In this document: positions 1 through 38,738 of the stretch, piece by piece
How the letters are laid out: each line of letters opens with the position of its first letter
Position numbering within the stretch: the first letter of the stretch is position 1
Assembly: GCA_905331295.1 (NCBI GenBank)
Contig: CAJNYD010000400.1
Coordinates: 1 to 64,000 of the forward strand
Reading direction: 5' to 3'
Length of the DNA stretch: 64,000 nucleotides
Source of the DNA: Rotaria socialis
Lineage: Eukaryota
Notes under the pieces: generated by a model
Seen by the model: the letters and a program-made list of their open reading frames with translations, nothing else
What the model was told of the DNA's origin: nothing
The model's database searches: none
Position numbers and translations under genes: made by a program

Positions 1-255
1 TGAACTAGTTCAAATCAAAATATTTTAATCTGTCCTGGTTCAGATCAAAATATTTGAAACTGTTCTAGTTCAGTTTAAAATATTTTGATTTTTCCTAGTT
101 CAGATCAAAATTTTAAAGTCAACTAGTTGAGATTAAAATGCATTTCGAAGTCAACTAGTTCACTTTAAAATTTTAATCTGAACTAGGAAAAATTAAAATT
201 TTAATCTGTCCTAGTTCGATTTAAAACTGTACTGGATTTTAATCTATCCTACGAC
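1..255. repeat. Degenerate ~30-bp tandem/inverted repeat array, probably a MITE/foldback arm truncated by the window edge
   Basis: Units such as tgaactagttcaaatcaaaatattttaatc and tgtcctggttcagatcaaaatatttgaaac recur at ~30-bp spacing, partly in inverted orientation. Confidence 0.7.
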
Positions 256-420: not shown

Positions 421-1433
421 GTGTCAATCGCCGTTGATTGTTTACATTCAATAGCTAGTTTTACCAATCCATCATTAATTCGAAATGCTACAACAAATGA
501 ATGTAGATTTTCAAGATTTGCTGGTTCGTTACGTCTTGCTACATCTATGATATCATTCATAGTCAATTTACGTACATTGCCAAGAAACAATAAAATTTAT
601 TTTTTACCACTTCGAGACATTGGTCTTTATGTGTCATTACTATTAGTGTACTATCTGTTGTTGTACAATTTTTTCTTTGTCGCCGTTTATGTATACCATT
701 TATTTGTCGAATAGAAGGTTTTAATTCATTTTTCAATGGTTGTGTTACAACGTATATGCTTGTTGCATTATCAGTGGTACGATATGCAACAACAGCAAAC
801 TCATCAATTTCATTACAAATTCAGCAACGAATGGAACAGCACGGTTGGCACCTTGCTATAATTTGCTTTGTAATGGGTGGTGTTTGGGCTGTACCATCCA
901 TATTCGGTCGTATGAGTACTTATGCTCCCGAAGGATTTGGCTTTCATTGTGGTCTCGATTGGTTTGATCGCCCATTACCTGGGCGAATTAATTTTTTTCT
1001 TCTATTTTTCTTCGTCTTGTTTATGCCGATCATAATTGTTATCCATGTTAATGTATATATTCAACATACTGCTTATCATTTAACACATTTGAGACCGTCC
1101 ATTGTACTTGAACTGCAACAAATTTCAAGTGAAAAAAGCATTCGCAGACATGTTTCAGGTACACTATTTGAAAAAGAAGCTCGACGTTTACATGAAGATC
1201 AACGCTTTGTTCTCGCTACCGGAATAAGTGTTTTTGTTTATATAATTGCGTGGACCCCTTATAGTATTGTAGCAGTTGTAAAAATATTTGGCGATCAATT
1301 TTCTTTATATAATCCATGGCTTATGACAGCGTGTGCAGTTTTAGCTAAACTTTCAATGGTAACAAATCCAATTGTATATGGAATTATACTTAAAGATCAT
1401 ACAGGAATGAAGCTAAGATTAAATACGAAATGA
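421..1433 (+). pseudogene. Opsin-like class A GPCR, probably disrupted (GTG in place of the start codon, frameshift near 590-605)
   Basis: The frame of ORF 756 extends upstream to ~594 and gives CRIEGF...SVVRY (TM3), YAPEGFGFHCGLDW (ECL2), AWTPY (TM6) and AKLSMVTNPIVY (TM7, retinal-binding Lys position). A TM1-like segment lies in another frame (421-590). I found no GT-AG intron that restores the frame while keeping TM1. Confidence 0.7.
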
Positions 1434-1574: not shown

Positions 1575-1955
1575 CTATGTAAATGGTTTTTTATTTTTTG
1601 TTGTGGCTTTTGTTGTTGTACTTGTTGATGATGTTGATGATGTGCGAGTTTTTTCTTGTTGTCGCCGAAGTTCTTTGTAATTTGACCATGTGTCTGTATA
1701 AGGTCGAAATAAAGCTGATATGTATTCTTTTCCTATATCTTGTACTGCTTTAAAATCATATTTCACATCTCGTTTTGTTTTATCCCACCCTCCTGCTCGC
1801 TCATATTTACCTTTTTGTTCAATAAATTTATCTTTGCTTGCATGAAAATAATATGCTGCTAATTGTGCGGCTCGTCGGATAGGATAGGATTCAGATAGGC
1901 GACGAATTAATTCTTCATTATTTGATAAATAACGTATTAATGAACGCCACGGCAT
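1575..1955 (-). CDS. NCBP2AS2: NCBP2-AS2-like small protein (single coding exon)
   Basis: MPWRSLIRYLSNNEELIRRLSESYPIRRAAQLAAY matches the family motif L..RLSES.PIRRAAQL. ATG at 1955. Confidence 0.8.
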   Translation of the reverse strand: MPWRSLIRYLSNNEELIRRLSESYPIRRAAQLAAYYFHASKDKFIEQKGKYERAGGWDKTKRDVKYDFKAVQDIGKEYISALFRPYTDTWSNYKELRRQQEKTRTSSTSSTSTTTKATTKNKKPFT

Positions 1956-2217
1956 ATGAATTTTTTTTTTCTTTCTGAAATGAAACAAAAATCAAGTATA
2001 TCGATATTAAAATAGTATGATAATCTTTTCATAGATATGCATTTTCTTTGAGCATCGTTTGAAACAAAACTAGTCTGAATAAAAACAAAATATTTATTTA
2101 TTTTCAACAAAGACAAATAAAAATTGTCGAAAATCACCGTGAAAAAGAAAAGAAAGTTAATTATTCGATAGAAATAAATATACTGGCATCAATCATAGGA
2201 TTCTTTTCAAAGGTTAT

Positions 2218-4626
2218 CTAGTGGCAATTTTGACAGTCTTTTGAACACAATTTGCCTTTATTTAATCGACATCGACATCCACCTGATGTATCGCCACGAC
2301 CACCAGGACCCCATCGAGGACCACGAGTTGGCCACTAAGATAAATAAAGTTTCATCCTAATTAAAAAAAAAAGAACAAAAAGTTACAACTCGTCTACTTA
2401 CACAAATTTCCATTTTACACTGTGTACATTGTAACCAATCACAGCCGGATAATTTTTGTATAATTACTTGACAACCAGGACTAAATATAGTTTGTATGAT
2501 ATAGATAATAATGACAATATACAAAATACTTACCAGTGCATCGCTTCTCTTCGTTTGATCATTTCCTAGAGAGAATAATTTGATAATATTTATAATCTGT
2601 AATTTAATTTTAATCTCACTTCTAAATGTTCTTGATCTTTACGAGCTGTTATATCATTCATAGCTCTAATTTTAAGAGCTTCTTGATATTCAAGACCTAA
2701 ATATATGTATTTGAAATGGATAGTGATAATAGTAAGATCAATAATAATAATAAAAACTTACAATTTTGACCCTCATGGACAGCTACACAGGTCATACAAA
2801 TCCAATGTTTACATCCCTACAAAGATAATCTTCATCGATGAAAATATTTGCTACGCAAAAAAACGACGAGTAAACATACATCACAGTAGACAATATTATT
2901 TCCTTGCAGTTGCTCAATGAACCACCATTGATTACAATCGGGTGTAATACAATGAAAAGTTTTATGCCGACTTTCAGCCCAACGTACACCGATTTCATTT
3001 AATCTATCAACTATTTTTTGATCACGTTTCATATCTTTCACAATCTAGTGAAACAAAAACAAAAACTATTTCTTGCTATCATTGTTAATTAAACTCATTA
3101 TTCTTTTTCTTACACCACGCAATTCTCTTTCACCGATTATAGTAATGCAATCATCATGTGGACATCGCAGCAATGGTTCCGTACTTGTTTCAATCATTTG
3201 TAAAACGCAACGTTTACACATAGGATGCAAACAATGATGAAATAAGACACCTTTATTTTTTCCAGTCAATTCATAACAAATAATACATTCGAATTCATCA
3301 CTATTTTTGTAATAAGCAGCAGTTGCCTGTTGACGTAAATCTTCTTGGAATGCTTTTGAATCTTCTTGATAACGTAACAATTGTTTTTCTTGTTCATGTA
3401 CAAAATTAAGATATTCAACATTTGTCATAAAGATACTTCCACAACCAGCACATGTCGGTGCTGAATCATTCTTACAGTTATGATGTGAACAAATAACACA
3501 ATACCAATTTGGTGGCTATCAATCACAGGTAAAAATGAATATTTAATGCAATTCTGAAGATTTCAAATTCTAGTTTCTTACTGGCTTCGTTGTTGTAGGT
3601 GCATAAGAATTTGATTCAATATGATTTGTTGCTATTCGAGTTGGTTTTGGTTCGACACTGGTTGATTCCGGCTATTATGAAGAATGAAATGAAGATCATC
3701 TTAAAAATATTCATTGTTACATTTTGTACTTTAGAGTCTTTAAGACATTGATCAAGTAAATCTTGACGAAGGCGACGACATGCTTTACATGCTCGACGTG
3801 CTGATGGATTATAACTATGACATTCAACACATTCCCAATATGAAGACTAGAACAAAAAAAGCTTGTTAGCGTAGCCTCTTTGGGGCTAAAATGTGGAACT
3901 CACATATATCCCTTCGACTTACTAAAATAGTTCAAAATAATTCATCTGAAAAATCTACCCTGATTTCCAAAACCTATAATTAGATCATTTCCTATTTGCA
4001 CTTATGTCTGTAATTGAGTATTAATTGTTAGCTCGTATATTTAACAAGGGCAGAGACAGGTTTCTATGGTCTGTAATGAGCAAACATTGCTTTTTTCGTG
4101 TAGTCTGTAATTGAAAAAGGAAGAAATAGCAGCCTAATTAGTCAAGCTCCTAATTAGCACAATTTTAAACTCATTAATGTCTGTCATGGGCAGGGGGGTG
4201 GGGAGTCGCAAAAATCTCGCTTTTAAACTTACACTCACCATTTTCTTCGAAAATATATGTGAGTTCCACAAAAAATAAACATATTCTGGGAAGTTATTTC
4301 GAAATCATTGCTTACCACTGGCCGTACAGTTGAAGGTGAATCAGCGGTTGTCTAAAATAAAAGCAACGATTAGTTTTTATCTTGTCACGATTTCTTGTTT
4401 TCGGCTCGTGATCGTATCGAAAACGTCCATCAAATGAAATACTGAATTCATTCCTAATCGTTTAATATTAAAAAGAAATAGTATTCATCATGAAATATAT
4501 TACATCATATTTTCTCTAAGACACGTAGATCGATAGAGTGTTGAACAAGGCTATGAGATTTCCTTAAAATGTGCAGGAAAAAACATCGTTACTTATTCTT
4601 ACGTCTCCAGATGAAGATGTGGCCAT
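2218..4626 (-). CDS. RBCK1: HOIL-1/RBCK1-type RBR E3 ligase (NZF-NZF-RING1-IBR-RING2), lacking the N-terminal LTM/UBL
   Basis: Phase-consistent exons 4626-4603, 4351-4316, 3846-3730, 3671-3582, 3515-3114, 3044-2880, 2816-2762, 2696-2620, 2565-2534, 2480-2402, 2334-2218. RING1 FECIIC...CLHPMCKRC...CPHDDC; RING2 [32 protein letters not shown]-1-diagnostic tail [22 protein letters not shown]...CSKDCQNCH*. Confidence 0.88.
3892..4270. mobile_element. MITE in an intron of the RBR gene
   Basis: Perfect 18-bp TIR tgtggaactcacatatat...atatatgtgagttccaca, flanked by A runs. Confidence 0.75.
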
Positions 4627-4748
4627 AGTTCATTTATTGAAATATAAAACTGAATTATCTAGAACCAGAAATCAATTTGAAACTAAATACACAGAATTAT
4701 CACATTTTATGAATGATAAAATTCAATGGTAAAATAAAATAATCATGA

Positions 4749-6040
4749 TTAGTCTGTCGGTTTCGCTGTACATGTGAGACATCGCTGTTGATGTTGATCA
4801 TTCCGTGTATTGCAAGCGAAACATGTCCAAGGACCCTGCCGTACACGAAAAGAAACAAGTCTTATTTCTAATGAAATTACGCTAGCAGATATACTTGCAG
4901 TTCTATTAAATGTTCTTGGATATGATAAGAAGAATAAAATGAATAAAGAGTTTGGTCCAACATTTAAATCTTTCATTGTCGAATCATCATGGGCTAAGCA
5001 GCCGTTAACAAAAAAATATTGATTATTTGGCGGATATTGATATGCAAATTCGAACTAAAACAAAATCTGATCATTTCCATAAAGCTGAACAGATTTTTTT
5101 TACATACAGCCGCACGTAATTCTCGCACTTTTGTAAAACGAAAGACATCAATAGGAATTTTACCACCGTTTTGATCAATACCATATTCATCACCATCTAG
5201 TTGAACTTGAATTCTATAAGAAAATATTAATATTAGCAAGAAATAATTTCGTTAACATACGTGAATGATGCTTCATCGTTTTGTTTGTTTAATGCTTTTG
5301 CTTGCAGTCGAATATGTTGTGAGGCGAATTGTGAAGCTAATTGAACAGCCGCAATTTCATCGCCTTCTTGAATATATTTATTGAGACGCTGAATATCAAG
5401 TAGAAGTTCTAAAAATAGATTGAATTTTTGATCATGTTCACATTAAATGAAATATTATATTGGTCAAAAACAAAGTTTATACGATAACTAATCTACATTC
5501 AAATCTTACCTTTAGCAGGAACAACATTTATAGGGGGTATATCAATTTTGCCCTGAATCATCTCGTAGGGAATTTCCTTGTCTTCACTAATATTATCTTC
5601 TTCTTCCATATCTTCATTGGATGATTGTGAATTTGAATCATCTCTGGATATTGTATTTAGCTGTTCGATGCAAACATCTAATGCGTCATGAAATTTTTCA
5701 ATTGTTTGTGCAAACAACCATAAGAAATAAATTCCGGAAGAGCCACGAATTTCATCAGGTTGATTGATTCCGTCACCGCGTTTATATTGTTCGGGTTTTC
5801 GCAATGGAACGTTAAAGATCTCCTAGAATAAAATATTTGTTTCTTTAATTGATTATTTAGTTCAACTATTTTCATAGCTACTAGTTTATTGTTATCTACA
5901 TCGACAGCTCGTATTGAATAATCAGCAAAATTATATTGTCTCAATTCAATGATTGACCTATCAGAATAGTTGATGTCAGGACGTTTCGGATTGTCTGGAC
6001 GGTATTGAATACGACATTTACTATAAGCTGCAAGGTCCAT
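4749..6040 (-). CDS. SHARPIN-like protein A1: PH-like + LTM + UBL + NZF (~328 aa)
   Basis: Exons 6040-5882, 5822-5510, 5408-5261, 5213-5108, 5054-4881, 4835-4749. LTM-like helix pair LNKYIQEGDEIAAVQLASQFASQHIRL; UBL IQVQLD...FTKVRELRAA|FEFAYQYPPNNQYFFVNGCLAHDDSTMKDLNV; NZF WTCFACNTRN...RCLTC. The PH call rests on position and predicted beta-rich character, so it is weaker. Confidence 0.8.
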
Positions 6041-6201
6041 TTTATCTAAATTAGAATAGCAATACAAAAAAAAACTTTTTATAGAAAGTGAACACAATAT
6101 TGTTATCACAATAAAAGCAAAAAAATGAATTATTTTTAACTACATGATGCAAAAATGATGATTCGAAAATATGGATAGATAAAGAAGTTCGATTTAAAAC
6201 T

Positions 6202-7431
6202 TCACCATGACGGAATTATAAAAAGAACAAAAAGTGAATTTGTTTGAATGTTTAACTCGTGCATAGTCATTTTATCATGAGCTAAATGTCCATTAACAAA
6301 AAGACTTTGATTCGTTGGTAGGTTATGTTTAGAATATTCTAACTATGAAAGAAAATTGTTGATTTAATAATAATAGTAGTTCTTATGATTTTATTTTACA
6401 TACCGCAGTACGTAATTCATGAACTGTTGTTGACGGATAAACATTCATGGAGAAATCCTTATATTGATTATTGATTCTTTCATCGGTACTATCGATTTTG
6501 ATTATAATTCTATTGTATGAAATAATAAATGAATTTAAAAAGATGAAAACTATATTTCTGAAACATACTTGATCGTCGGTTGTTCTTTCGATTGTTTAAA
6601 TGAATTAACTGCAAGTGGAGCGCGTATATGAGCTAGCTTTTTACTGAGAACAGCAGCTCCATCAGTATCACCTTGTCTAATGCATTGACCCAATTTATAA
6701 ACATCAACCAAAATATCTAAATCAATAGAAATTATTAATATATGATTGCTTCTCTTTTTTTTGCTAAGAAAATTCTATTCGATCATAAAAAAAATACGCA
6801 AATGTTTAATGAATTGAAAAAAAAAATATATATATATATATCTATACGTAACAAATCCTTAGTCAAATCTAGTTTAAACTTTTTTATTTGTTTCAAAAAT
6901 AAATCCAAAACACTAACTTTCTAAATAATAACAGAATCGTACCATTTTCATCGTTAGGTACCACTGACTTTACTTGGATAGCATCCTTCAGTGGGCTTGG
7001 GTTTATTGTATCATTAGGTGGAGGCTCAGGCGTATGTTCAGCACATAGTTCTAATTCGGCAACACATGTCTCTAATACTCCGTAAAACGAATCTCGCCCA
7101 GCAGCATTTAGATTTAAAAAGAAGACTCCAACGCTACTACGAATTGCATCTGGTTGATCAGCTGTTCTTCCACGTTTATATTGGTCTCCTTTTTCGAATG
7201 GAATGTTGAAGATCTCCTGCAAAAAAAATTGCGTTTTCTGTAATTAATTGTTCGATTCAGCGATTATCATACTGTTTTATTATTGTCCACATCAATACCA
7301 CGCAATGAATACTTAGCGAAATCCAATTGTCTCAATTCAATGAATGATCTATCTGAATAATTAACTTCTGGACGTTGTTCATCCGTTGGAACGAATTGAA
7401 TACGACATTTACAGTAACCTGCCACACTCAT
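6202..7431 (-). CDS. SHARPIN-like protein A2: PH-like + LTM + UBL, no NZF
   Basis: Exons 7431-7273, 7216-6943, 6716-6569, 6509-6404, 6342-6202. Exon lengths 159/148/106 are identical to A1. Paralogy is clear (YCKCRIQ...NYSDRSFIELRQ; LTM LGQCIRQGDTDGAAVLSKKLA; FVNGHLAHDKMTMHELNI). Confidence 0.8.
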
Positions 7432-7756
7432 CGTATTAAAAGCTTTCGAAAACAGAACCAGAAGAAAACAAGGATGGATGCTCCGATAAAATTTCCAACG
7501 AACAGATGAATCAGTCAGCTGTTTTTGTTTTCGACGATGGAATATTAAAAAGAAATAGACAAAATTTAATAAGAAAAATGCTTTGAATTATAGAGACATG
7601 AATTTTGTCTTTACTAGGTAGTGATGTTCACAACAGGTGTTATCCAATTAATTGTAGAGGCTTTCAAGTATATTTCTATTGGTCGAAAGCATGTGTTGAA
7701 AACTATGTTTGCAAAATTTGATTAGACACCTATTTTTTTCTTCCTCGACAATTAAA
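7432..7756. promoter_or_regulatory. Putative bidirectional promoter
   Basis: 325 bp between divergent start codons (A2 on -, ANAPC15 on +). Inferred from gene arrangement only. Confidence 0.5.
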
Positions 7757-8232
7757 ATGTCATCGCATCTTTGGCCAACTATTGAAACATCAAAAGTTAG
7801 CTCATTATGGTTTCGGCCATTGCAAACAGGTAGAAAAATAAATTATTCTAGCTAAATAATCATATGAGTATCTTGAAATGACTTCTTTTAGTTCGCGAAG
7901 ATGTTAGTCTAGCTAAATTTGAAGAAACACTTGAACAAGAACGGCGACGTCATCTTGAAAAAGGTTTTTTCCCTCATGAATATATCGCTTGTATTTAAAT
8001 TCATTTCATTCAAGGTTTAAATTTACCATTTCATGGACGAACAGAAATGGATAATGGCGATGTATGATTATGAAAAAATCAACTGATAAGATTTGTTTTG
8101 TTTTTATTTTAGGATGATGAAGACGGAGATGAAGCTGAAGAAGAAAGTGAAGGCGGTGAGCAAGATGATGAAATGGATGCACAGCAAGGTCCTGGATCAC
8201 CAGGAAACGGAGTCGGCAACGGAGTAGTATAA
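7757..8232 (+). CDS. ANAPC15: Anaphase-promoting complex subunit 15-like
   Basis: Exons 7757-7829, 7892-7963, 8015-8061, 8113-8232. MSSHLWPTIETSKVSSLWFRPL...LAKFEETLEQ...LPFHG followed by an acidic tail, matching the APC15 pattern (L.P....LWF, helix, D/E-rich tail). Confidence 0.72.
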
Positions 8233-8340
8233 CATGATTTGCGTCAAATTTATCATTCTTCTGTCAATTTTTCTGTAGATAAAGATGTTTTTCTTTCGAG
8301 AATATGATGTTTACTTGTATTTTCAGATATATTATCTTTA

Positions 8341-10635
8341 ATGGATAAGTAAGAAATAAGAAAGAAATCAAATTTATTCTTCTTTAATTTTTTTCATTTG
8401 CCAGCGAGTTCGCAGTTAAATTGGTACGAAAACAAGAATTAAACAATAGCAACATCAAATCCTATGAAAATAATGTTAGAATGAGTTATGGATATGATAA
8501 TGAAAGAAATCCACGTTATATTTTCATTATAGCTGATAGCGAGGTTGATCTTGATTGAATATTAATTTCATAAAATTCTTTTGATCGAATTCTATAGTAT
8601 ATCTGGACACACACACTGCAAGAATTAGAATGGGTTACGATATCATCAATCGATGGAGTAGCTACAATTCGATCATTATGTTCTACTGTCATTATTATGT
8701 ACGATAAAACCAATCAGACACTGGCTGATTTCTTTGCTAGTCTGCAAGCAATGCTTGTGCATGGTACGTTGTGTGTACCGTTTTCTTAGACCTAGTTTGG
8801 CATAGAAAATCACCGACTGCTTAATCTTGAGTGTAGTGCTATATATATATTCTTCTTCTAAAAGATATTTTTTGGTTACTTTTAGAACCCAAATTGACGT
8901 TGTCTGGGTCGGATTTATTACTATCAAACAAAGGTATACAGTAAAAACTGATATTATTAATGGGACTTTGACATTTCGAATAGTGATGCATGTAAAAAAA
9001 ACATCTAACATAATATAATGCCTTGCTTGGAGATCATAGATTTCAAAATTAACAAGCAAAGCTATTCTTGGTTTCGTTACCAATGGATTACAGTGAGCTA
9101 ATGATATTTTTGACTTGATACTGATTTCAATCGAATTGAGAAATCTGATTTCGTATTTGCTATGTATAATAATGTTAGTCAGAATGTTTGTATCAAAATT
9201 GTTCAATACGACTGAGCCCTATGCCACTGTAACGATAGTTTCCGGCAATATTGTAGAAAGTTTTCTTTTGCCATCGTATTTAACAAATAAATTTGGGTTT
9301 GAATTCATTAGATTTACTACGCTTTGAACTGATTGCATGTGCTTAAATTCAAATTAGTTATAGGTTCATGAAATTTTAAAGTTTTGTTAAAAATAAATGG
9401 CCATGCTACGACATTTTTATTGAAAGTGTCACCTCTTTACTCTTTTTGAATTGTCAAAAATAATACTCGAGAGATTTTTCTAGGGTTAACATTCCTTGTT
9501 ATCTTACTTTTCTAGCTAGAGTATTGGACATGGGCTCGTTCCATTGGATTGGAGTTGTCTGTATTTTCTTTTCTCTGTTGTTTTTTTTTTATTAAGAATC
9601 GTGTGGATATATTAGATAACAAAGACGCATAATTTACTGCTCTAAACTTGGTGAAATAGTCTCGATTTTTAGAAGAACTCACCTTTATGAAAAATATGCG
9701 AAAATAACGGCTTGCATCTCAAGCATTTGACCAACATGTTATATAGCACGTCGCGAAAGCTCACCATCTAAATTTATCCATAAGGGAGTGCAAGGTCACA
9801 TTCAAACCATAGATATTAAGGAATGAAATTTAGTTTTCGATGAATTTTTCTATACTATATTCGAACTCGTGTCTATTTCTATTACAAAATAATTTTGCAG
9901 ACAAGAATATCTAGAAATTTATGACGAAGAAATAAATATTCTATGCAAGTGATTGGTTCACTAAACCTTCGAATTATTTTGCGTCGGCTAAAAAGCGTCT
10001 TAATTTATAGGTCATGCAGAATCATCAATGATCGATGAGCTCATAAATGCAATTAATACAGGTGCTGTGGATGAGGCTGAGCGTATCGCACAAAAAGTAG
10101 CAACATCTAAAGTCAATGTTCAATTTAGTTTGCTCAATAAAAACGATAAAGAAGAAACGAGAAAAACTGAATCAAAGGCAGCTGAGATTAAAAAGGAATC
10201 TTCTGATAATATTCTTGAGTTAGTTTTAATAATTAGTTTACATTGCTATATTTGATCTACTTCGTTAGGTTAACGCTTAGTATTGAATCTTTAATGGAAC
10301 ATGATCCTTTAATAGCGTCTATCACTGTTAGTTCTGGCACAACACTACAATCCTTAAAAGAACAAGTTAGTTTTTATGAAGAAAGAAAACTTGATTCTTA
10401 TAGTGAATATTTTAACTAAAAAGTTTAATTCATAATTTAGATAGAAAATCAATCGGGTATTAAATCTAGTAATCAATATTGGTTTGCATTTAAACGATAT
10501 CCGATTCCGAATGACTATATTTTCGGATCTTCACTGCCAGTAGTTGCAATTCAACAACAGCAGCCGTCAATCAATTATATTCGATCTGGCGATACACTAA
10601 TTTTGTATATTTCTCAAACACCTCTTTCACGCTAA
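8341..10635 (+). CDS. SHARPIN-like protein B1: PH-like + LTM + UBL (~286 aa)
   Basis: Exons 8341-8348, 8405-8543, 8598-8763, 8886-8933 (optional, phase-neutral), 10011-10218, 10269-10365, 10441-10635. LTM IDELINAINTGAVDEAERIAQKVATSKVNVQFSL; UBL LTLSIES...GTTLQSLKEQ|IENQSGIKSSNQYWF...GDTLILYI. The 8-nt and 166-nt exons match B2 in length and phase. Confidence 0.72.
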
Positions 10636-10999
10636 AATTAAAACCAAAGAATAATTTTTTCTTATTCATTAATCTATTTCGTACAAATTTTCTATTTTAT
10701 TGATGCATACCGAAAAACAAATAAACAACTTTTGTTTTGTTTTAAAGTTCTATATGCGAAAATTATCACTATTCTAGATATGGTGTGTTGATGCCTCTCA
10801 AATGTTTTAAGACAAAACATATGAAAGAATATTTCTGCGTACATGTTGATGAACGATTGTATTTGAAGGAGTTACTCAAAACGTTAAGTAACCATCAAAC
10901 TGTAATTAATAAAATTTTCAATGATTCATACAAAATCAGATTACTAAAAGAGTCACGTGTATAAAGATTTAAATTTGTTTTTCTTTCTAGATACTATTC

Positions 11000-12705
11000 A
11001 TGTCGCTGTAAGCATTGAATATGTTTTAGTATATGCTAACCGTACATTTCTTGTCTATTTTATACTAATATAAATTTAGAACAGGACGTGCTACTATTAG
11101 AATTAAAGATGAAAAAAATCCTGGTGATATTCGTAACTATTCCAATGTGAAGTTACAGCTGACAACTAGTAAATCCAATCCAAAACTTAGTCTTAAACTT
11201 CCAATCGACAATGAGGTATTTTAATATTGACGATGAGATTTAATTTCTATAATTTTCGCACAGGTTGTTGGACGATTTAATTTAAGGGATTGCTCTTACG
11301 TAGAGAAATCATCAGCTCGCGGTACCGTAGAATGTATTCGTAATAATTCTACAGAAGAAATACTGCTTATACTGAATCCAACCGAAGAATCTGCACCGTT
11401 GTTAGAACATTTGCGAAACTATTTGACGGGTTAGTAAGATTTTATTGGAGTAAAACAAATAATTCAGTCCTGCTTCACTTTTTTAAGCTGGTCCTGAAAC
11501 TGCTCGTGGATCTACACCAGAATTTGCTCGTAGACCTGCACCAGGACCTGCTCGTGTAGCTTCACCTGCAGCTATACCCGCACCTATTCCTAATGACGAC
11601 GTGGATCAATTAATTAGAGCATTGAATGATAACAATACCAATGAAGCCAGTCGTTTTGCACGTAAACTTGCTTCGAATCACACAGCAGTTCAATTCTCTC
11701 TTGATATGATTAATGAATACGGAAATGCAGCACCACGACAACCACCAAAGCCTATTATACAACCATTAAAGTAAATATTATAATATTACAGTGCTCTTGT
11801 TTTCTTCGAAAGTGTCAATCGATAGATGTCGCAACAGAAGATTGATTCATATAATGAAATCATAATTTATGCTTTTTTTGAAGCATACTCGATCAAAAAA
11901 TAAAATCTTTACTTAAATATATTAAAATTAAAACATAGACTATGAATATCATGTAATATTGTTTTCTGCAGATTCTTGACGAGGCAATATTTAAAACTTG
12001 TCGATTCGCTCAATCAATTCAGTTTCGCGTACAGTATCATGATAACGGTTAATGCATTTTATAATATAGTTAGTAGTGGATTTTACAAATGTTCAGAAGC
12101 CAACAGCGCTTAGTGAGTTTAGTCTTGGAGATGGAATCTTATGAGAGAAAAACAAAATTGTAAACTCAGAGTCGACAATCCCAAAAGCCATTTTTATCCA
12201 ACATAGAGTAAATATCAAGAATTCTTTTCAGCAACTACTTCTTGACAAAAATAATTATTTCTATGAGTTTTCTTTCAGCTCGTTACTCGATATGCGACAG
12301 ACAATCTACCGATAGCGTTTCTCCCCTACGAAACAAAAAATAGTATTTCAATTTAATTATGTTGCATATATCTTTAGATTGAAGCTAACAATCGAAAGCT
12401 TTTTGATTGACCAATGTACGGATGAAAAATACGATGTGACTATTCTTCCAGGAACAACTATAAAAGATCTTAAACAAATAGTAAAAACGAATACACTGCG
12501 TTGTTTCGAAATTTTTTAAACAACCCATTCTTCTTGTTTTTCTTCTCGTAAGGTCTATCGTGATACAGAAATATCTGTCCAACAGCAGTACTGGTTCATT
12601 AATCGAGAACATCTTACCGATACATATACATTTGGCGTTACAACACCACCTGTGAAAGAAAATACAGTACTTACACTTTATATTGCTAAGCCCCAACAGA
12701 ATTGA
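11000..12705 (+). CDS. SHARPIN-like protein B2: PH-like + Pro-rich linker + LTM + UBL (~282 aa)
   Basis: Exons 11000-11007, 11080-11215, 11264-11429, 11488-11770, 12378-12480, 12553-12705, all phase-consistent. LTM VDQLIRALNDNNTNEASRFARKLASNHTAVQFSL; UBL LKLTIES...GTTIKDLKQI|VYRDTEISVQQQYWFIN...VLTLYI. Confidence 0.8.
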
Positions 12706-12854
12706 CAGCTTTTTTTCTGTGATATTTTATATTAATTCGAATTAATTAAACGCGAGAAAGAATAATTTGAATTTTGAATTTATTTTTAAAGCTTTTTTTT
12801 TCTTATTGAATTTCATTTCTATCTTTCTTTTTCTTCTTTTAATATATTTATGAT

Positions 12855-13533
12855 ATGAACGTAGTTGTATACTTCTCTATCTTATTAATGACTCGGTTTT
12901 CATGCACAGTTCAAAATTGGCAAATAAAAATCATAAATTGTAGTCTGCTCGATGCTAAAAAGCTTCATCCAAATGTAACAGCCATTGTTAATGCTGCTAA
13001 TGTTTATATGCGCGGAGGTAAGAAAACAAATGAGTCAAGAAAATATGTACACATATTTTTCTTCAACGAAACTAGGTGGCGGTCTTGATGGAGCAATCCA
13101 CGCAGCAGCTGGTTCTCAATTATTAGCTGAATTAAAGCAACTTGTACCAGATAAAACTCAAACAGCACAGGTTATTGTTTCAAAAGGATATAAAACAGGT
13201 TTTGATCATATTCTACATGTTGCTGGTCCAGTTTATTCTGAGAAAAATCGCGATGAATCTCGACGACTTCTTGAAGAAACATATAAAAATGTAATACGAG
13301 AAGCTGATAAATTAAAAACAATAACAGCACTTGGCTTAGCATCTATTAGTACGGGTATATATGGTTATCCATTGAATGATGCAGCACCAGTTGCAATATC
13401 AACCGTCGCTCGAGAATTATCACAAGCAGAAAATCTAAAAACTGTTATTTTTACTATGTTTGAAAAACGTGAATTTGATGTATTCACAAAAGCATATGAA
13501 CAATGGAGGAAAAATACTGAAAAAGATTTGTAA
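12855..13533 (+). CDS. Macrodomain protein (MacroD-type ADP-ribosylhydrolase / O-acetyl-ADP-ribose deacetylase)
   Basis: Exons 12855-13017 and 13076-13533 join to AIVNAANVYMRGGGGLDGAIHAAAG; also ILHVAGP and SISTGIYGYP. The start could instead be the second Met (MTRFS). Confidence 0.88.
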
Positions 13534-14270
13534 ATTAAAGTGTTTTCTTATTTCGATAGATAGTAGATGATGTTTTTCTTTTCATAATAAATTATGTCTG
13601 ACTTGTTGTTTTTTCCTCAAAATCTGGATGCACTGAACAGCTTCATATTTAGGAGCAATAAACGTGCATAACTTATTATTTATTTGTATGGTATAAGATA
13701 TTCATTGACAAACTGAATATGAATCCGGAGTCATTGCTTGTATACGACTGGTTGGACAGTATGTTTCTTTTCTCACTTCGATCGTTCTGTGTTGTCTCAA
13801 TGATCATAACAAAAAAATATGTTAAGCAATGAAAGAAACCGTGACGTATACCTTTGAAGATACTTGTGAATGTTTAATGAGTGTATAGAAAGGTAGATAA
13901 AAAATAGACGCTGATATATATTGGTAAATTGAGAAACATTCGATACCTTACACGTGATACGTGCACATACAGTCAGCATTTGATTGATAGCTCGAATAGA
14001 TAAATAAAGACCATTCTTCAATAGCATTTACATGCAATAGAATACGATAAAAGTTAGTAATTATGTATTTCAACGCTTTGCTCCTTTTTTTCTTACTAAT
14101 TTTAAAGACTCACAATATTTTAATAACGGAAAGTCAACAAGAAAGACATGAGATGTAAAAACAAAGACTGATAATAATTCTATTGATTCGAATAATATAT
14201 TTCTTGATCATAGAACACAAGAAACAAGAACGGTTACCTGTTGTTTCATTTACTTTTACAGGCTTTTGAA

Positions 14271-16867
14271 ATGAAAGAATTCGATAATCATCCAGCAAAA
14301 ATAGATATCACAAATATGGATGGACAAGTAAATGCAAGCTTTGTAGGAAATCCTACTGATTATCAGTTGCAAACTATAAGTGAAGAAGAATACCCACAAG
14401 CCAGTGGTTTACTACGAGGAACAGCAGCATCTGCTTCATCCTTTCAAGTTCATTATGAAGCAGCATCTGGTGAAGATTCACATGGAATTACTTTTGCGCC
14501 ACCTCCACCTGCTCCATCATCGGCTTTTACTCATCATCATCAACAACACCATCGATCAAATGAGACAGGTACATTTGAACGGCAATCCTCTATACTCGAT
14601 CCTATGTCAGATCGTGTTAGTACAATTCTTGTTTGGAAAAATTTGGTTGTATTTACGCGAGAAGATAAAAAGAAGTTATTTTTTAAACGTTGTCTATCAA
14701 AAAATGCTGAACCAAAATCAAAACATCTGCTACATAATGTAAGCGGCGCTATTACCGGTGGATTATGGGCTGTAATGGGTGAGTTTTTATTTAATTTTGA
14801 TGCAGACTACGAGTACAAATTGAGTAGTTATCTAATAGTCAACTTAATCAAATTTATTATTAACTAATCAATATTTGAGAGTATACGCTTTCGATTCATT
14901 GACCCTAACTAATGTGGTATAAAATCATACGAATACTTTTCGTACGTTCTTATATTTAATGATCATCCTTATCGCACATGGAAGCATATAAAAGCAAAAT
15001 ATTTCTCATATAGGTCCATCGGGTTCTGGAAAATCAACTCTATTAAATACATTAGCTTGCCGTTTGGATGTCAATACAACTTTTACTGGTGAAATGCGTT
15101 TAAATGGTGCACCGTATGATAATGCTGAATTGAAACGTATTGCTGGTTATGTTATGCAAGATGATTTATTAAATGGATATTTGACTGTTGAAGAAACATT
15201 AATGTATACAGCTGAACTTCGCTTACCACGAACATTCACAAATGAACAACGAAAGCAACGTGTCGATGAAATTCTCGATGAGTTAGGTTTAACACATACA
15301 CGGCATGATGTTATTGGTGTTCAATCAAAACGAGGTATATCCGGTAGTGAACGTAAACGAGTTTGTGTTGGCATGCAATTGCTTAATCGCCCACAATTAC
15401 TGTTTCTTGATGAACCAACAACTGGCTTAGATTCAGTGACAGCACTTGATTTACTTTATATACTTCATGCACTTGCACATGGCAAATCACAAGAAAAAGC
15501 TGTAACGATTGTTTGTTCGATCCATCAACCGCAAGCAAAAATATTTAATTTATTTGATTCGATTGTTTTACTTAAAGCAGGTCATATCATGTATCAAGGT
15601 CCAAGAAAACAATCAACAGTAAGAAGAAGAAGAAAAAGAAAGAAGTTTATTCAAGATTAATAGATAGAATTTTCGATACATTTCAGGAAGTGTTTCGTGC
15701 AGCTGGCTTTCCTTGTCCACTGTTCACTAATCCAGCCGATCATCTTTTAGATGTTATAACACCACCAAAACCTAATCAAGAAAATTCCGATGAAGTTCCA
15801 TTAACAATTGAACAACAAAAATCAGTAGATCAAGCACTTATAAAAGCACAGCCGCCAATTGAAATTGATCTAAACATGGGTGTACATAAACGTGTTGGTC
15901 AAATGGCAAATTTGCCGCGTAATCCACCATGGCATAAACAAATACGAATACTTTTTCGTCGTAATTTACAAGAACAATACCGAAAAAAAATTCTTATCAT
16001 TACTTCTGTTTTACAAACAGTTATCATGGCTGTTTTAATTGGTACCGTTTTTCTAGATATTGGCACTTCACAAACTAGTATACTACGTCGACAACCTGTT
16101 ATTTTCTTTTGTATTATCAATCAAGGTGTTTTTGGTGCATTAACAGTTATTAATTCATTTCCAGTTGAACGAACATTAACATTACGTGAACGAGCATCTG
16201 GAACCTACTTTGCTAGTGCTTATTTTGTAGCAAAAATTCTATCCGATACACTTGTTCAATTACCAATACCAATTGTATTTGTACGTATAATATGAAAACA
16301 ATTAAAATTGAATAATAATGAGATAAATTATTTTCTCTGTTTTTTCCTTCTTCTGATTTTTAGTCGTGTGTTGTTTATTTTCTTATTGGTTTACAGCCGT
16401 ATGCTGCAAAATTTTTTATTTTTATGATTTTTATCATTCTGTGTTCGGTAACATCAACATCAATGGCATTAATGATTTCAGCTCTATGTCGAACGACAGC
16501 ATTGAGTGTAACAGTTTTACCTATGTTACTTGAGTTAACACGTTTATTTGGTGGTTTTTTTGTTCCACCAGCAAATGTACCGGGCTATTTATCTTGGATA
16601 GATGCTTTATCTTATATAAAGTATGCTTTTGTTGGTGCTGCTCTTAATGAATTAGAAGGTTTGCGCTTAAATTGTGACGGAATCGCAGTTACGATCGTAA
16701 ATGCAACATATAATATAACAGCTCAATGTATAACGAGTGGCGAAAAAATCATTCAAACACGTGGATACAATTATATTAGCATCGGTGGTTGTATTGGCGT
16801 TTTATTATCTTTCATTATTTTTTGTCGTTTTTGGGCTTTTGTCGGTGTACGATTTCTTAAACATTAG
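14271..16867 (+). CDS. ABCG (White-type) half transporter, copy 1
   Basis: Exons 14271-14778, 15014-15618, 15687-16280, 16364-16867. Walker A GPSGSGKST, signature ISGSERKRV, Walker B LLFLDEPT, SIHQP, NPAD, C-terminal TMD. Confidence 0.92.
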
Positions 16868-19008: not shown

Positions 19009-21782
19009 CTTAAATAGCAAACGTGAAAGTAGTCATCGTTAACTCAAGGCATTCAAGACAATCGAATATAAGAGAAAGAGAGAACTATGTCGATACTAAA
19101 CATGAATAGTGAAACAGAACAATAGACAACCCAGTTTTTTTATTTCTTCCTACTCGAACACAAATAACCCTGGCTGATGAAAAGAGTATGTCCATGTACT
19201 ATATATCTATACGTAGACGTACGCACATATTACCATCATATGACCTCAACATATACATATAAAACTAAAGAAATACTTTCATCGAACATAGTTTATTTTC
19301 TCATTTCGATTCAATTTCTTATCATATATATTTTGTCGAATGAAAATTTTGTTTTTCTATCAAAAATATTGTTTTTTTCTCAATCGAACTAAGAAACAAT
19401 TAGTTACAATATAAGATTTTTCACATATTATAACCTAAAATTGTTAAACGAAGCTAAGCGAACAACGATAGAAAATGTTGTTCAACAAGAAAAAGATAAC
19501 TTACTTTAAAATACGGGCTGATATTATATCTGCGTTTGTGCTACTCAGTTTTTGAACAATTTTTTGTCAGTCGGCCGACCAACGACAGTCGGAATATTAC
19601 TAAACGTGGGTAGACGCGCACACAGAAGAAGAAAAAAAGAAATGACCGAATGAAAGAACGACGATCGTATGGTTAAGGCGAGTCTCGATTGTAAGAAAAA
19701 GAAAGAATAAAGAGACAGTTGACCGCTTATTGAGAGAACGAGAAAAGGAGAAGAAAAAAACGGGCACCGAGCCCCGAATGAACGAACTGCGTTACATTAA
19801 AGACATACCAATGTTCTACCCCTCCCCCATACTGGGTTATCAACTATGATGCCGTCAGTAGTCATATGATCAGCACGTTTATTTCATGTGGACATTCTAT
19901 TAAAATATATGCTTGTTGACCTCCACTAATAATCAAATTTTGCTCGTTGCTATCGACTCGGTACAAGAATGAATCAAGGCAATCGATACTGTTTGTTCAG
20001 AACTCACGAAATATCTATTTAGCCTAATTTAGTTACATAGAAAAAAAAGTTTATTATCATGATTATTAGATATGTATTTGCAATTTATTTTTTTTCGGTA
20101 GATTCATATCACATTTATCAATTTACCTCCAAAGGTATACGCAGGCCAAATCGACAATAAATAGCCGGTGAAATTTATCCACAAATGTTTACTATTTGAT
20201 TGAAGTTTATAAACGAACTGTTTTTTACTGATTGATCCTTGTATTGATTGTTTAGTTTTACGAGTGAATTTCAAGAGTATCTTCGAAAGCTATCATTGTT
20301 CATAGAAATATTAAAATATTGTACAACAATTCTTTGAAGTATTCTAATATTAATTACTATGTTTCAAAAAAGATAATGGTAGCGTTCATGAAATTTGTGT
20401 ATTTCTGCTAAACTACTGTCCTAGTCGAAATTTTTTTTGCAAGCGCATGCAACTCTTGACTTTCTGGCGCAAGAAAGTCATGCACTATGGACACATCTTG
20501 AGCTCAAGTCTGGGCAAGTGCATGAATAAAAGGTTCGCCTAGGGTGATTATTCAACTTATCGGCCAAACAGAAGTGAACCTTCTCAGAATAGTTAGAGCC
20601 CAGGTTAAAAGAATGTTCAGTATACATCGAAATTATTTTGTTAATGAAACGTTGCGTTACGGTAATCAATTATTAAATGATACAAGGCTGAATGATACAG
20701 GACTCGTCTTACTCAGAATTATACAGTAAGTTTTCTTGAGTTCATTTCAATCTTGAAATGATACATGAATATCTTTGTATCTGGATGCAATGAACCCCTG
20801 TATTTACCGATGCAGAAAGAGTGCATATGCATATAATACCGAAAATAATAATAATAATAATTACATAGTGTTTGTTTTCAATTCTAGAAAAAGGTTAAAA
20901 TAATTTTTACATCTTAGCTTGAGATGATAAACTTTTGAAATTTGCTGCTTTAAAGTGAGGATGTATTTTATGAATGGAGTTTCGATACACTCTGGATGAT
21001 AATTTTTGTCTGTTATTATATTAAAAGAAAATTATCGTCAAATACTCATACATGAATAGATACTATTAATAAACAAGTTTTTGAGCTGAAACATGCGACT
21101 TTATAGAACCCAGGGGCGCATCTATCATAACATGTTACTAAACATGCGCACAAACTAGATACATAACCAGAATTATTACGTGTACATAAAATATTTAAGG
21201 AAAAAAGTGATTTGGTCGACTAGTTTCCTACGATTACTGGTAGAACGAAAGAACGAAAAGCAAAATTTCACGTGCATAATACAACATACATTCATGTGTT
21301 GATCAAGAAAAATACCTGATAACAATGCTGTACCAGGGAGCGATGAAAAACATTTTAGTGAAGGTTAATCATTGGATATACTTTTTTTTGTAAACAGCGA
21401 ACGTTTCATGCTTCATTAAACCGAGTCATGAGTGATCAAGTTATTTTAGCACACTGCTATAAAAGACGTATGAAAAACTCTTGTTGCTAGATTGATAATT
21501 GTAAACAGTACACACATACGCCAGTTCATATTCGATAAAGGTGAGTTTAACACGGAAAGATAACTCTCAAGTTGCCTGATTTCAATCGCAGTTATATTCT
21601 ATTATTTCCCTTTATTTTTTTCATTGATTAATACATATAATTGGAAATAAATTGTACCGAAAAATCTTGAAAAATAAAATAAACTATAGAGAACGCTTTA
21701 GTATTATAGATTTCAGCATTGATATTTATTCATCACTGAAATTTGTATTATTATTTATCTTTGATTTGAAATACGAACTATA

Positions 21783-27100: not shown

Positions 27101-27416
27101 TTGTCATCGCCGTTGAATCGATGGAGTAAGCGAGAAGGTTGTTGTTCGATACAAATTGTGTATTGTAACGAGATACAGTTAACGCAATACAATTCATATT
27201 TTTCTCTTCAGTTCTTCATAATCACTAAAAATCCACCCACGCATTTGATGTGATGCATGGTAACGCTTCCTTAATATATAATAAACAGTAGGAACAAAAT
27301 GCATACTACATAAGGTGAAGAGCTTTATTGGAAAACAACCGGTTATTTCAACATTCTTTTTTCACGAACCTGTAAACTATTAACTGAATTAAACAATAGA
27401 TTATATTACTTCAAAT

Positions 27417-28007
27417 ATGAACAATTATAATGATAATAGAGATTTAAGCTCATTGCAACTTGAAGAATTAGAATCAGTAGTTGGCATCAATGAAAATCAA
27501 TCGAATAATGAAAGGTCTTTCCCCGAATGTTTCTGGATAAATCAAAATATTAAAAATAAAACAACGATTTATAACGAATCACTGCCTGCTATGTACACGT
27601 TATCCGTAATTAACAACCAAGACTATTCATTATTCAATAATATCATTCAATCTTATGAAGATTCTCATGAACGTTCATTTAATCCTAGAGATTGGTTAAT
27701 TGCTGATTCACTTTCAAGAAGACTACGAGCTCCACGGCAAAACGAATTTCTCTACCGTCTTTTAGAACATCCATGTTATGCATCTTGTCTAACGTGGTTA
27801 AATAGAAATGAAGGTTTATTTAAAATTCATGATCCTGAACGTGTAGCGACACTTTGGTCACGAGTTAAAAATCGAAGAACAAATGGAGTTATGACTTACG
27901 ATAAATTCGCACGTGCATTAAGATTTTATTATAAATCAGGATCAATGATAAAAACACATAAAAAACATACATTCCGTTTTAGACTACCTCTACATAGTGC
28001 CTGTTAA
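27417..28007 (+). CDS. Intronless ETS-domain transcription factor
   Basis: EFLYRLL...LTWLNRNEGLFKIHDPERVATLW...MTYDKFARALRFYY...TFRF is an ETS winged-helix domain. Confidence 0.88.
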   Translation: MNNYNDNRDLSSLQLEELESVVGINENQSNNERSFPECFWINQNIKNKTTIYNESLPAMYTLSVINNQDYSLFNNIIQSYEDSHERSFNPRDWLIADSLSRRLRAPRQNEFLYRLLEHPCYASCLTWLNRNEGLFKIHDPERVATLWSRVKNRRTNGVMTYDKFARALRFYYKSGSMIKTHKKHTFRFRLPLHSAC

Positions 28008-38312: not shown

Positions 38313-38738
38313 TTTCTAAAAAATTAAATTGAAGAATAAAAGAATTCAATAGGACAAATATTTATTAACGTATTATTTAAATAAAGTTTTTATAAGTATT
38401 CATTAGAAGTGTTTAAGACCAAAATAATAAAAAAAATAGCAAGTCGCAGATGTTGGTTTGCTTTCTCTGTTCTCTGATTCGTTCGTTCGTTTGAAAACGT
38501 GGACAACAGCAAAAAGGCATCAGATGGATGGAGATTAGATGCAGTGACGTGTTCGTTATATGGATTGTGCCTCCCTCTATTCGAATCATTTATCAAAAAT
38601 TATATTGTTTTTGTAATCATTTTATAAATGAATATTTTTTAAAAAGTATTTTATCAAGAAAAGAAATTAAAATGGAGTCTCTCACTGGACGTAGATAATA
38701 GTGAAACGACACTTATGGCAGCAGTAATCACACTTCAT

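What the first reader, a model, noticed from the sequence alone, without database searches (positions are those of the whole stretch)
2218..12705. Expanded LUBAC accessory-subunit cluster: four SHARPIN-like PH-LTM-UBL genes beside a HOIL-1-type RBR ligase
Seen: four genes (4749-6040 and 6202-7431 on -, 8341-10635 and 11000-12705 on +) each encode an LTM-like helix pair followed by a ubiquitin-like domain. All share a phase-1 intron before the LTM exon, a phase-2 intron before UBL strand 1 and a phase-0 intron after the L(K/R)xx helix. They form two divergent subfamilies. Known: vertebrate LUBAC is HOIP + HOIL-1L + SHARPIN, the last two co-folding through their LTMs and binding the HOIP UBA through their UBLs; stand-alone SHARPIN is usually regarded as vertebrate. 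Inference: this invertebrate independently evolved a family of SHARPIN-like adaptors that could build combinatorial LTM dimers and variant LUBAC complexes, or act as NZF-less decoys in immune or stress signalling.
Basis: partly seen in the sequence, partly recalled or inferred. Interest (0 to 1): 0.9.

Follow-up and report, generated by a model that had tools for sequence, protein, structure and literature searches.

The report
Rotifer HOIL-1 gene split in two
In bdelloid rotifers the HOIL-1 ubiquitin-ligase gene lies in two pieces, an enzyme-only gene and a multiplied family of SHARPIN-like adaptor genes made as separate leader-spliced messages, which would separate the scaffold and enzyme jobs that one protein does in most other animals, although binding to the partner ligase HOIP is untested.

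Summary
The cluster is real. The window is bdelloid rotifer DNA: genes R and C match proteins labelled Rotaria socialis letter for letter. Four genes encode a PH-fold domain, an LTM helix pair and a HOIL-1/SHARPIN-type UBL, and spliced RNA-like contigs support the models. Corrections: gene A (4749-6040) ends in an NZF, the pre-LTM intron is shared by three genes rather than four, and an APC15 gene sits in the middle.

The neighbouring HOIL-1 ligase R has no PH, LTM or UBL and is its own spliced-leader mRNA, starting 90 nt after A's stop. This split and the gene order recur in Adineta, Rotaria and unnamed bdelloid-like contigs. Hydra, molluscs, echinoderms, amphioxus and sturgeon keep one fused protein. 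A second bdelloid HOIL-1 paralogue is PH-RBR, again without LTM-UBL.

Best reading: an ancestral PH-LTM-UBL-NZF-RBR gene was split, and the adaptor half then duplicated (at least six in R. socialis records), independently of vertebrate SHARPIN. A LUBAC role is inferred only. HOIP could not be looked for, LTM dimers are unshown, and the NZFs lack the usual Thr-Phe pair. Verdict: new variant of a known kind.

The parts
2218..4626 (-). Gene R: HOIL-1 (RBCK1)-type ligase, 397 aa, NZF-NZF-RING1-IBR-RING2 with HOIL-1 C-terminal tail; no PH, LTM or UBL; 11 exons; a separate SL-trans-spliced mRNA
   Evidence: Model; identical to P0220; Adineta orthologue P0004 vs human HOIL-1 E 1.9e-62, next family ARIH2 1e-6, catalytic Cys position kept; no LTM/UBL hit; RNA joints and SL end
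4658..4660 (-). Trans-splice acceptor of R, 90 nt after A's stop; A's 3' UTR contig runs over it to 4637
   Evidence: SL loose ends at 4660 in X1 and X5; a matching acceptor and own first exon in L002, L004, L008; spacing
4749..6040 (-). Gene A: PH-fold, LTM, UBL, NZF (322 aa; full SHARPIN layout); 6 exons, last intron GC-AG; SL acceptor at 6045
   Evidence: 1-2 differences from P0225/P0222; fold of orthologue P0007 has top Foldseek hit 5y3t_A, E 1.1e-6; PH superfold Z 12; Atlas 'sharpin' 0.94
6202..7431 (-). Gene B: PH, LTM, UBL, no NZF (275 aa); paralogue of A (38%); first gene of the minus-strand run, 3' UTR contig reaches 6040
7432..7756 (.). 325-nt head-to-head spacer between B and APC15; candidate bidirectional promoter for both gene runs (inferred)
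   Evidence: B 5' UTR contig to 7603; same divergent layout in L008/L009
7757..8232 (+). APC15 (ANAPC15)-like gene, 103 aa, unrelated to the adaptors
   Evidence: Model; Pfam ANAPC15 E 2e-9 on the identical stretch in P0022; 3 introns spliced
8341..10635 (+). Gene C: PH-fold, LTM, UBL (286 aa); SL acceptor 8327; a possible PH-only form by read-through of exon 4
   Evidence: Identical to P0024; model's top Foldseek hit 5y3t_A, E 3e-5; PH superfold; SL end 8325 and contig 8906-9256; read-through stop
11000..12705 (+). Gene D: PH (inferred from homology to C), proline-rich linker, LTM, UBL (282 aa); SL acceptor 10991; 26% identical to C
1578..1955 (-). Small gene following R, about 260 nt downstream (resembles NCBP2-AS2 from recall; no Pfam hit); part of the conserved run
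   Evidence: ORF; Pfam blank; same position in L002, L003, L005-L009

Best explanation
This cluster is likely a split HOIL-1/SHARPIN gene: an ancestral PH-LTM-UBL-NZF-RBR gene broke into an adaptor gene (A) and a ligase-only gene (R) that still lie in the original order and are made as separate leader-spliced mRNAs, and the freed adaptor half then likely duplicated into B, C, D and further copies elsewhere. Shown: the domain layouts, the separate SL-bearing transcripts, the conserved split and gene order in bdelloids, and the fused state in outgroups. Inferred: the adaptors pair through their LTMs and present two UBLs to the double UBA of HOIP, so they would fill both the HOIL-1L and SHARPIN seats of LUBAC. 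R, and the PH-RBR paralogue found elsewhere, keep the HOIL-1 active site but have no known way to dock on HOIP, so they would act outside the complex or be recruited by another route. Tight head-to-tail packing with a leader on each downstream gene suggests that the pieces are co-transcribed (inferred).
For: R is a separate SL mRNA in two organisms. An intronless R-only contig from a more distant species (75% identity) begins with the SL's last six bases (L001). R-only proteins of about 400 aa occur in A. ricciae, A. steineri and four Rotaria species. A ends in a stop and R has its own first exon in L002 and L008. Of 100 non-bdelloid HOIL-1-type RBRs with 250 or more residues before RING1, 75 carry LTM and/or UBL; named fused examples are Hydra, Haliotis, Solemya, Ylistrum, Diadema, Patiria, Branchiostoma, Acipenser and Macrostomum. 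In Aplysia one gene yields HOIL1 and a SHARPIN-like isoform (PMC9334734 passages). The PH-RBR paralogue (A. vaga P0028; Didymodactylos P0032, partial; L010, L012-L016) has an A-type PH with PH and RING1 in one exon, and groups with R at support 1.0. LTM interface positions named in PMC6044281 (L176, I180, A192 of mouse SHARPIN) map to L/L/L/L, I/I/I/L and A/S/A/A in A-D. Two UBL introns are shared by 4 of 4 genes.
Against: HOIP in bdelloids is not shown: no genome was held, and no gene-name hit was found in four papers' supplements. None of 28 distinct bdelloid NZF strings has Thr followed by F/L/Y, against 49 of 52 outgroup NZFs, so ubiquitin binding may be lost. Monophyly of A/B with C/D is only 86/78 with long branches and unsupported in the larger quick tree. 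Their PH domains share no detectable sequence similarity. PH-RBR could be a secondary fusion made by deletion in a duplicated A-R locus; a chimeric R/A model exists in R. magnacalcarata (P0006). Of those 100 outgroup RBRs, 25 also lack LTM/UBL (Culex, Lycorma and Dermacentor among them), so losing the docking module is not unique. Some NCBI models fuse A and R (P0001-P0003, P0227, P0232).
Confidence: 0.6

Rival explanations
1. Same split and expansion, but LUBAC is gone or uncoupled: bdelloids lack a usable HOIP, the PH-LTM-UBL proteins have become general dimeric UBL adaptors for other UBA-domain partners, and R is a free ester-forming ligase.
For: The NZF Thr-Phe pair is absent in 28 of 28 bdelloid strings. 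The adaptors diverge fast (18-21% identity between subfamilies). Both bdelloid HOIL-1 RBRs lack the docking module. HOIL-1 can ubiquitylate glycogen in vitro (PMC9527308 passages).
Against: LTM interface residues are kept in all four genes. The UBLs still match the HOIL-1/SHARPIN type. The mollusc Aplysia has HOIP. Ten A. ricciae genes carry the GO term 'LUBAC complex' (which genes is unknown, and they may be these adaptors).
Confidence: 0.25
2. A and R are still one gene with alternative ends: a full-length HOIL-1 is made by splicing from inside A's last exons into R's second exon, as Aplysia makes both forms from one locus, and the SL forms are side products.
For: Fused NCBI models exist in R. 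socialis (649 and 689 aa) and R. sp. Silwood2 (638 and 683 aa). An in-frame donor at 4880 can join acceptor 4351. Contigs drop rare variants.
Against: No A-R joint appears in the four runs laid on 3400-6150. The SL is on R in two organisms. R's own first exon is conserved in L002, L004 and L008. The same gene finders also fuse clearly separate neighbours: APC15+C, C+D (P0020-P0023, P0025). Of 15 listed members of the P0001 cluster, 12 are unfused.
Confidence: 0.08
3. C/D are an older or separately derived stand-alone lineage, not copies of the fission product, and their place beside A/B reflects later clustering.
For: There is no PH similarity between A/B and C/D, and the union is weakly supported. 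C/D were found only in Rotaria records, with a low-sensitivity search.
Against: C/D share the phase-2 and phase-0 UBL introns with A/B, and a phase-0 PH intron at residue 48-53. All 12 bdelloid rows form one side of a branch in 86% of bootstrap trees. They lie in the same cluster.
Confidence: 0.12

Closest known systems
Mammalian SHARPIN (PH-LTM-UBL-NZF; PDB 5Y3T, 8K6P, 4EMO)
   Same: Gene A has the same domain order without an RBR. LTM and LTM-UBL best match SHARPIN/HOIL-1L chains. ESM Atlas nearest cluster is 'sharpin' (0.94 for the A orthologue; 0.83, a lead only, for C).
   Different: Not orthologous by tree; no Sharpin_PH sequence match; the NZF lacks the Thr-Phe pair; at least six paralogues instead of one; B, C and D have no NZF.
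HOIL-1L / RBCK1
   Same: R keeps RING1-IBR-RING2, the catalytic Cys position and the C-terminal tail ending in His.
   Different: No LTM or UBL, two atypical NZFs, and a sister paralogue with PH fused straight to RING1.
Fused 'SHARPIN and RBCK1-related' proteins of invertebrates and fish; Aplysia HOIL1 locus with a SHARPIN-like isoform (PMC9334734)
   Same: The same set of domains in the same order when A and R are read in line.
   Different: Elsewhere they are one gene, and Aplysia makes the adaptor as an isoform. Here they are two genes, and no LTM-UBL-bearing RBR mRNA was seen.
SL-resolved operons of nematodes, tunicates and chaetognaths (PMC7986045, PMC12460157 passages)
   Same: Co-oriented genes 90-355 nt apart, with a leader on downstream genes.
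   Different: A polycistronic precursor is not shown here. PMC7986045 (2021) says operons had not been reported in rotifers; PMC12460157 lists rotifers loosely among lineages with trans-splicing and operonic transcription.

Membership tests
SHARPIN | N-terminal PH superfold | tested here: met
   Fold level only: A-type residues 1-112 Z 12.1 to RanBD/EVH1; C residues 1-104 Z 8-10, 4EMO Z 8.5 at rank 29. B and D inferred by homology.
SHARPIN | PH belongs to the Sharpin_PH sequence family | tested here: inconclusive
   No Pfam hit and no hhalign match; Hydra and echinoderm HOIL-1 N-termini also miss this family
SHARPIN | LTM helix-helix-strand with conserved interface residues | tested here: met
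   scores are below Pfam's cut-off
SHARPIN | UBL of HOIL-1/SHARPIN type directly after the LTM | tested here: met
   Outgroup-only HMM 43-50 bits; UBL part alone 18-32 bits vs best shuffle 6.1; Foldseek
SHARPIN | C-terminal NZF with the ubiquitin-binding Thr-Phe pair (motif recalled) | tested here: not met
   NZF in A only, without the pair; none in B, C, D
SHARPIN | Orthology to the vertebrate SHARPIN lineage | tested here: not met
   Tree; AU p=0.032. Proxies were vertebrate-like fused proteins; no mammalian SHARPIN sequence was in the set.
HOIL-1/RBCK1 (gene R) | HOIL-1-type RBR with catalytic Cys and C-terminal tail | tested here: met
   (orthologue P0004)
HOIL-1/RBCK1 (gene R) | N-terminal LTM-UBL for LUBAC docking | tested here: not met
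LUBAC | HOIP present with double UBA | not testable with these tools
   No genome held; no HOIP query available; supplements blank
LUBAC | LTM-mediated dimerisation of accessory subunits | not testable with these tools
   Needs biochemistry; see Tried and rejected
LUBAC | Met1-linked chain assembly | not testable with these tools
   Needs biochemistry
SL-resolved operon | Spliced leader on downstream genes | tested here: met
   Loose ends at 6047, 4660, 8325 and 10989 match the rotifer SL consensus in PMC3795323 Table 1
SL-resolved operon | Polycistronic precursor from one promoter | tested here: inconclusive
   Upstream contigs reach or cross the next acceptor (L003), but a contig across two genes shows no single transcript

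The most novel reading that the evidence does not exclude
Bdelloids run a rewired LUBAC in which HOIL-1's two jobs are on different genes. Six or more stand-alone LTM-UBL adaptors pair in different combinations to occupy both seats on HOIP. Two untethered HOIL-1 ligases (NZF-NZF-RBR and PH-RBR) work independently of the complex, for instance on sugars or Ser/Thr. The parts are held together as leader-resolved operons flanking one bidirectional promoter, and trans-splicing is what let the gene break without needing a new promoter.
Probability: 0.3. Interest if true: 0.75.

Novelty: new variant of a known kind. Interest (0 to 1): 0.55.

Why it matters
Mammals divide the ancestral protein asymmetrically (recalled): HOIL-1L keeps LTM-UBL and the ligase, while SHARPIN keeps PH and has no ligase. 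Bdelloids appear to have cut it cleanly between scaffold and enzyme. That offers natural reagents for an open question, namely what HOIL-1's catalytic activity does apart from stabilising HOIP. It also gives a second, independent origin of SHARPIN-like proteins, with a paralogue set on which to test LTM pairing rules. The locus also has RNA-backed spliced leaders on tightly packed genes, evidence towards operons in rotifers, and it shows that public gene models in this region are often false fusions. No paper linking LUBAC genes to rotifers turned up in ten searches; the library lacks most subscription papers.

Tried and rejected
Complex prediction of A's LTM (156-202) with C's LTM (122-168): no verdict, score 0.02, alignments not used.

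HOIP search: no genome held. No RNF31/HOIP/RBCK1 name hits in the supplements of PMC11258130 (12 of 16 files, file 13, which was cut at about 4 million characters; one file too large and one unreadable), PMC10809525, PMC11043679 or PMC12460157. These files may simply lack gene names, so the blank says nothing about absence.

No run is on record as RNA; X1-X5 are treated as RNA because their contigs are spliced and carry leaders.

Alternative last introns of A, either unspliced or a 45-nt GT-AG intron, were dropped because the contigs show the 63-nt GC-AG intron. D's long intron 11771-12377 was checked for extra exons; the contigs skip it whole.

SHARPIN PH 4EMO was not among the top 50 VIA rows for the A model (inconclusive). 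Whole-profile PDB searches were led by polyubiquitin through summed repeats. P0073, an unnamed fused protein, sits next to the bdelloids in three trees with weak support and is not the best outgroup match to a bdelloid profile, so it was not used to date the split.

Earlier-findings look-ups for this genome, the LUBAC words and the sequence were empty. The Fujita 2018 text holds nothing on invertebrates.
Full report
Organism and models. The window is AT-rich eukaryotic DNA with introns mostly 47-75 nt long. No genome was held. Exon-by-exon models give six open genes between 2218 and 12705: R (4626-2218, -), A (6040-4749, -), B (7431-6202, -), an APC15 gene (7757-8232, +), C (8341-10635, +) and D (11000-12705, +). 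R and C are identical to proteins labelled Rotaria socialis, and A differs from such records by 1-2 residues, so this is a bdelloid rotifer.

RNA support. Five runs hold the stretch; none is on record as RNA. Four were laid on 2000-13700 and four on 3400-6150. Their contigs skip the predicted introns: B 4 of 4, A 5 of 5, R 4 of 10, C 3 of 6 and D 4 of 5 are listed, and 19 joint rows were not shown. The X1 contig for R is 1301 nt, which equals leader plus UTRs plus all eleven exons by my arithmetic. An 851-nt contig fits C's last three joins by length. A's last intron is a 63-nt GC-AG intron, which puts an NZF at its C-terminus. Loose ends at 6047 (A), 4660 (R, in X1 and X5), 8325 (C) and 10989 (D) match the rotifer spliced-leader consensus in Table 1 of PMC3795323 (passages read), each two bases beyond a genomic AG.

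Domains. An HMM from 73 non-bdelloid HOIL-1 LTM-UBL regions scores A, B, C and D at 50.5, 43.0, 44.2 and 44.3 bits and gives nothing on R. The UBL part alone gives 18-32 bits against a best shuffle of 6.1. The LTM part alone is uneven: D 15.3, C 10.5, B 3.7, A 3.4, best shuffle 2.5. Pfam LTM hits A, B and D below its cut-off and misses C. A profile of the four LTMs finds SHARPIN LTM chains first in the PDB, and interface positions named in PMC6044281 (passages read) are kept. Predicted models of an A orthologue (mean pLDDT 62, PH region about 84) and of C (mean 52) both have the HOIL-1L LTM-UBL chain of 5Y3T as top Foldseek hit, and a PH superfold at the N-terminus. The PH domains of A/B, C/D and vertebrate-type SHARPIN show no sequence similarity to one another. 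The phase-2 and phase-0 UBL introns align in 4 of 4 genes, and the pre-LTM phase-1 intron in 3 of 4.

The ligase has lost its front half. R's orthologue matches human HOIL-1 at E 1.9e-62, far above other RBRs, with the catalytic Cys position and terminal His kept (the His's role is recalled). R starts with its own short exon and leader, 90 nt after A's stop. R-only proteins of about 400 aa are recorded for A. ricciae, A. steineri, R. sordida, R. magnacalcarata, R. sp. Silwood1 and R. socialis (15 of 42 and 15 of 18 cluster members listed). Of 16 metagenome loci, L002 and L008/L009 keep B-A-R-small gene, L006 keeps A-R-small gene, and L008/L009 also keep the divergent APC15. In L002 and L008, A stops and R has its own first exon behind a matching acceptor; in L008 the A-position gene has no NZF. 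L001 is an intronless R-only contig that starts with the leader's last bases. A minority of NCBI models fuse A and R, but the same pipelines fuse APC15+C and C+D, which the leaders show are separate. A rare fused isoform is not excluded.

Ancestral state. A profile search of 1.84 billion representatives (best 150 of 1509 seen) gave 132 non-bdelloid HOIL-1-type RBRs. Of the 100 with at least 250 residues before RING1, 75 have LTM and/or UBL and 62 have both (the HMM was trained on this set). Named examples run from Hydra to molluscs, a flatworm, echinoderms, amphioxus and sturgeon, the last two with Pfam Sharpin_PH. Aplysia makes HOIL1 and a SHARPIN-like isoform from one locus (PMC9334734, passages read). 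The other 25 lack the module, including insect and tick proteins, so loss of docking recurs. The search also revealed a second bdelloid HOIL-1 with PH fused directly to RING1: A. vaga P0028, Didymodactylos P0032 (partial) and six metagenome loci. Its PH is of the A/B type (E 8e-37), it has the same phase-0 PH intron, PH and RING1 lie in one exon, and its RBR is sister to R at support 1.0. Neither bdelloid RBR type that I saw carries LTM-UBL.

Expansion and origin. R. socialis records hold at least six stand-alone adaptors: A-D plus P0014 and P0177, which lie outside this window. Further A/B-type paralogues occur in Adineta and other Rotaria; C/D were found only in Rotaria. In a 33-row tree of LTM-UBL, the 12 bdelloid rows form one side of a branch (86/78), split into A/B-type (96/98) and C/D (95/95), while the vertebrate-like rows (98/94) go with amphioxus. 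Forcing bdelloids with the vertebrate-like rows is rejected modestly (AU p=0.032). Long branches weaken both results, the 58-row quick tree left the bdelloid union unsupported, and the rows were my selection from the hits.

How it likely works. In mammals two LTMs co-fold and hold two UBLs on HOIP's double UBA (PMC6044281). With no LTM-UBL on either bdelloid ligase, both seats could only be filled by the stand-alone adaptors, as homo- or heterodimers; this is my preferred inference (0.6 for the whole reading; the fission itself about 0.85). The ligases would act untethered; HOIL-1's in vitro sugar ubiquitylation and activation by ubiquitin chains (PMC9527308, passages read) suggest what to test. 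Two cautions. HOIP was not found or excluded. The bdelloid NZFs lack the Thr-plus-F/L/Y pair seen in 49 of 52 outgroup NZFs (0 of 28 distinct strings; its role in ubiquitin binding is recalled), so the system may have drifted from LUBAC signalling.

Gene layout. Two runs diverge from a 325-nt spacer: B>A>R>small gene on minus and APC15>C>D on plus. The stop-to-acceptor gaps are 156 (B-A), 90 (A-R), 94 (APC15-C) and 355 nt (C-D). Upstream contigs end at or just past the next acceptor. This fits leader-resolved operons, which PMC7986045 (passages read) says had not been reported in rotifers, but no precursor is shown. An earlier AI note on another bdelloid locus proposed the same without RNA (e1-2593265); it is not independent support.

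Literature. Ten searches found no paper on LUBAC genes in rotifers (listings seen). Passages only were read of 10.1101/046789, PMC12460157, PMC6044281, PMC9334734, PMC7986045, PMC3795323, PMC9084887 and PMC9527308. Supplement searches only were done for PMC11258130, PMC10809525 and PMC11043679 (and for PMC12460157). Unread supplements and subscription papers on RBR evolution may bear on novelty.

Verdict. Known parts, a new arrangement, function untested. Interest 0.55.

Noticed in passing
window 3892-4270: MITE-like insert in R's second intron with perfect 18-nt inverted ends. Diverged copies appear in all four runs laid, and the same intron is only about 50-60 nt in L002, L004 and L008.
   Followed up: partly
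window 8886-9256: A contig runs through C's exon-4 donor into the intron and meets a stop three codons later, which would give a PH-only form of C; it may be unspliced RNA.
   Followed up: partly
P0028, P0032, L010, L012-L016: Second bdelloid HOIL-1 paralogue with a PH domain fused directly to the RBR; its genomic neighbours are unknown.
   Followed up: yes
P0006 (R. magnacalcarata record): Chimeric model: R's two NZFs followed by A's LTM-UBL-NZF, 16 member sequences; a real rearranged duplicate or a gene-model artefact.
   Followed up: no
P0026/P0176 (R. socialis), P0027 (A. ricciae): Further tandem pairs of PH-LTM-UBL genes elsewhere, fused by gene finders.
   Followed up: partly
window 1-231: Degenerate tandem repeat of about 30 nt with a 62-nt-arm palindrome at 79-202.
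   Followed up: no
window 594-1430 and 12979-13530: An apparently intronless rhodopsin-family 7TM gene, whose position is conserved in L002 and L005-L009, and a macro-domain gene just after D.
   Followed up: partly
window 14214-16864 and 21765-24158; 27393-28004 and 31165-31845; 35530-38315; 50142-51464: Two ABCG-type half-transporter genes, two Ets-domain genes, an STT3 gene and an alpha/beta hydrolase with a partial second copy near 56083. Origins not examined.
   Followed up: no
P0039, P0042, P0046, P0047, P0055 and others: Many unnamed HOIL-1-type proteins have very long N-termini, some with CAP-Gly or BTB domains; others have lost LTM-UBL (Culex, Lycorma, Dermacentor).
   Followed up: no
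PMC11258130 supplement 14: One of ten A. ricciae genes tagged 'LUBAC complex' (g30943) is listed as up at 7 h of fungal infection; not significant as a category, and the gene's identity was not checked.
   Followed up: no
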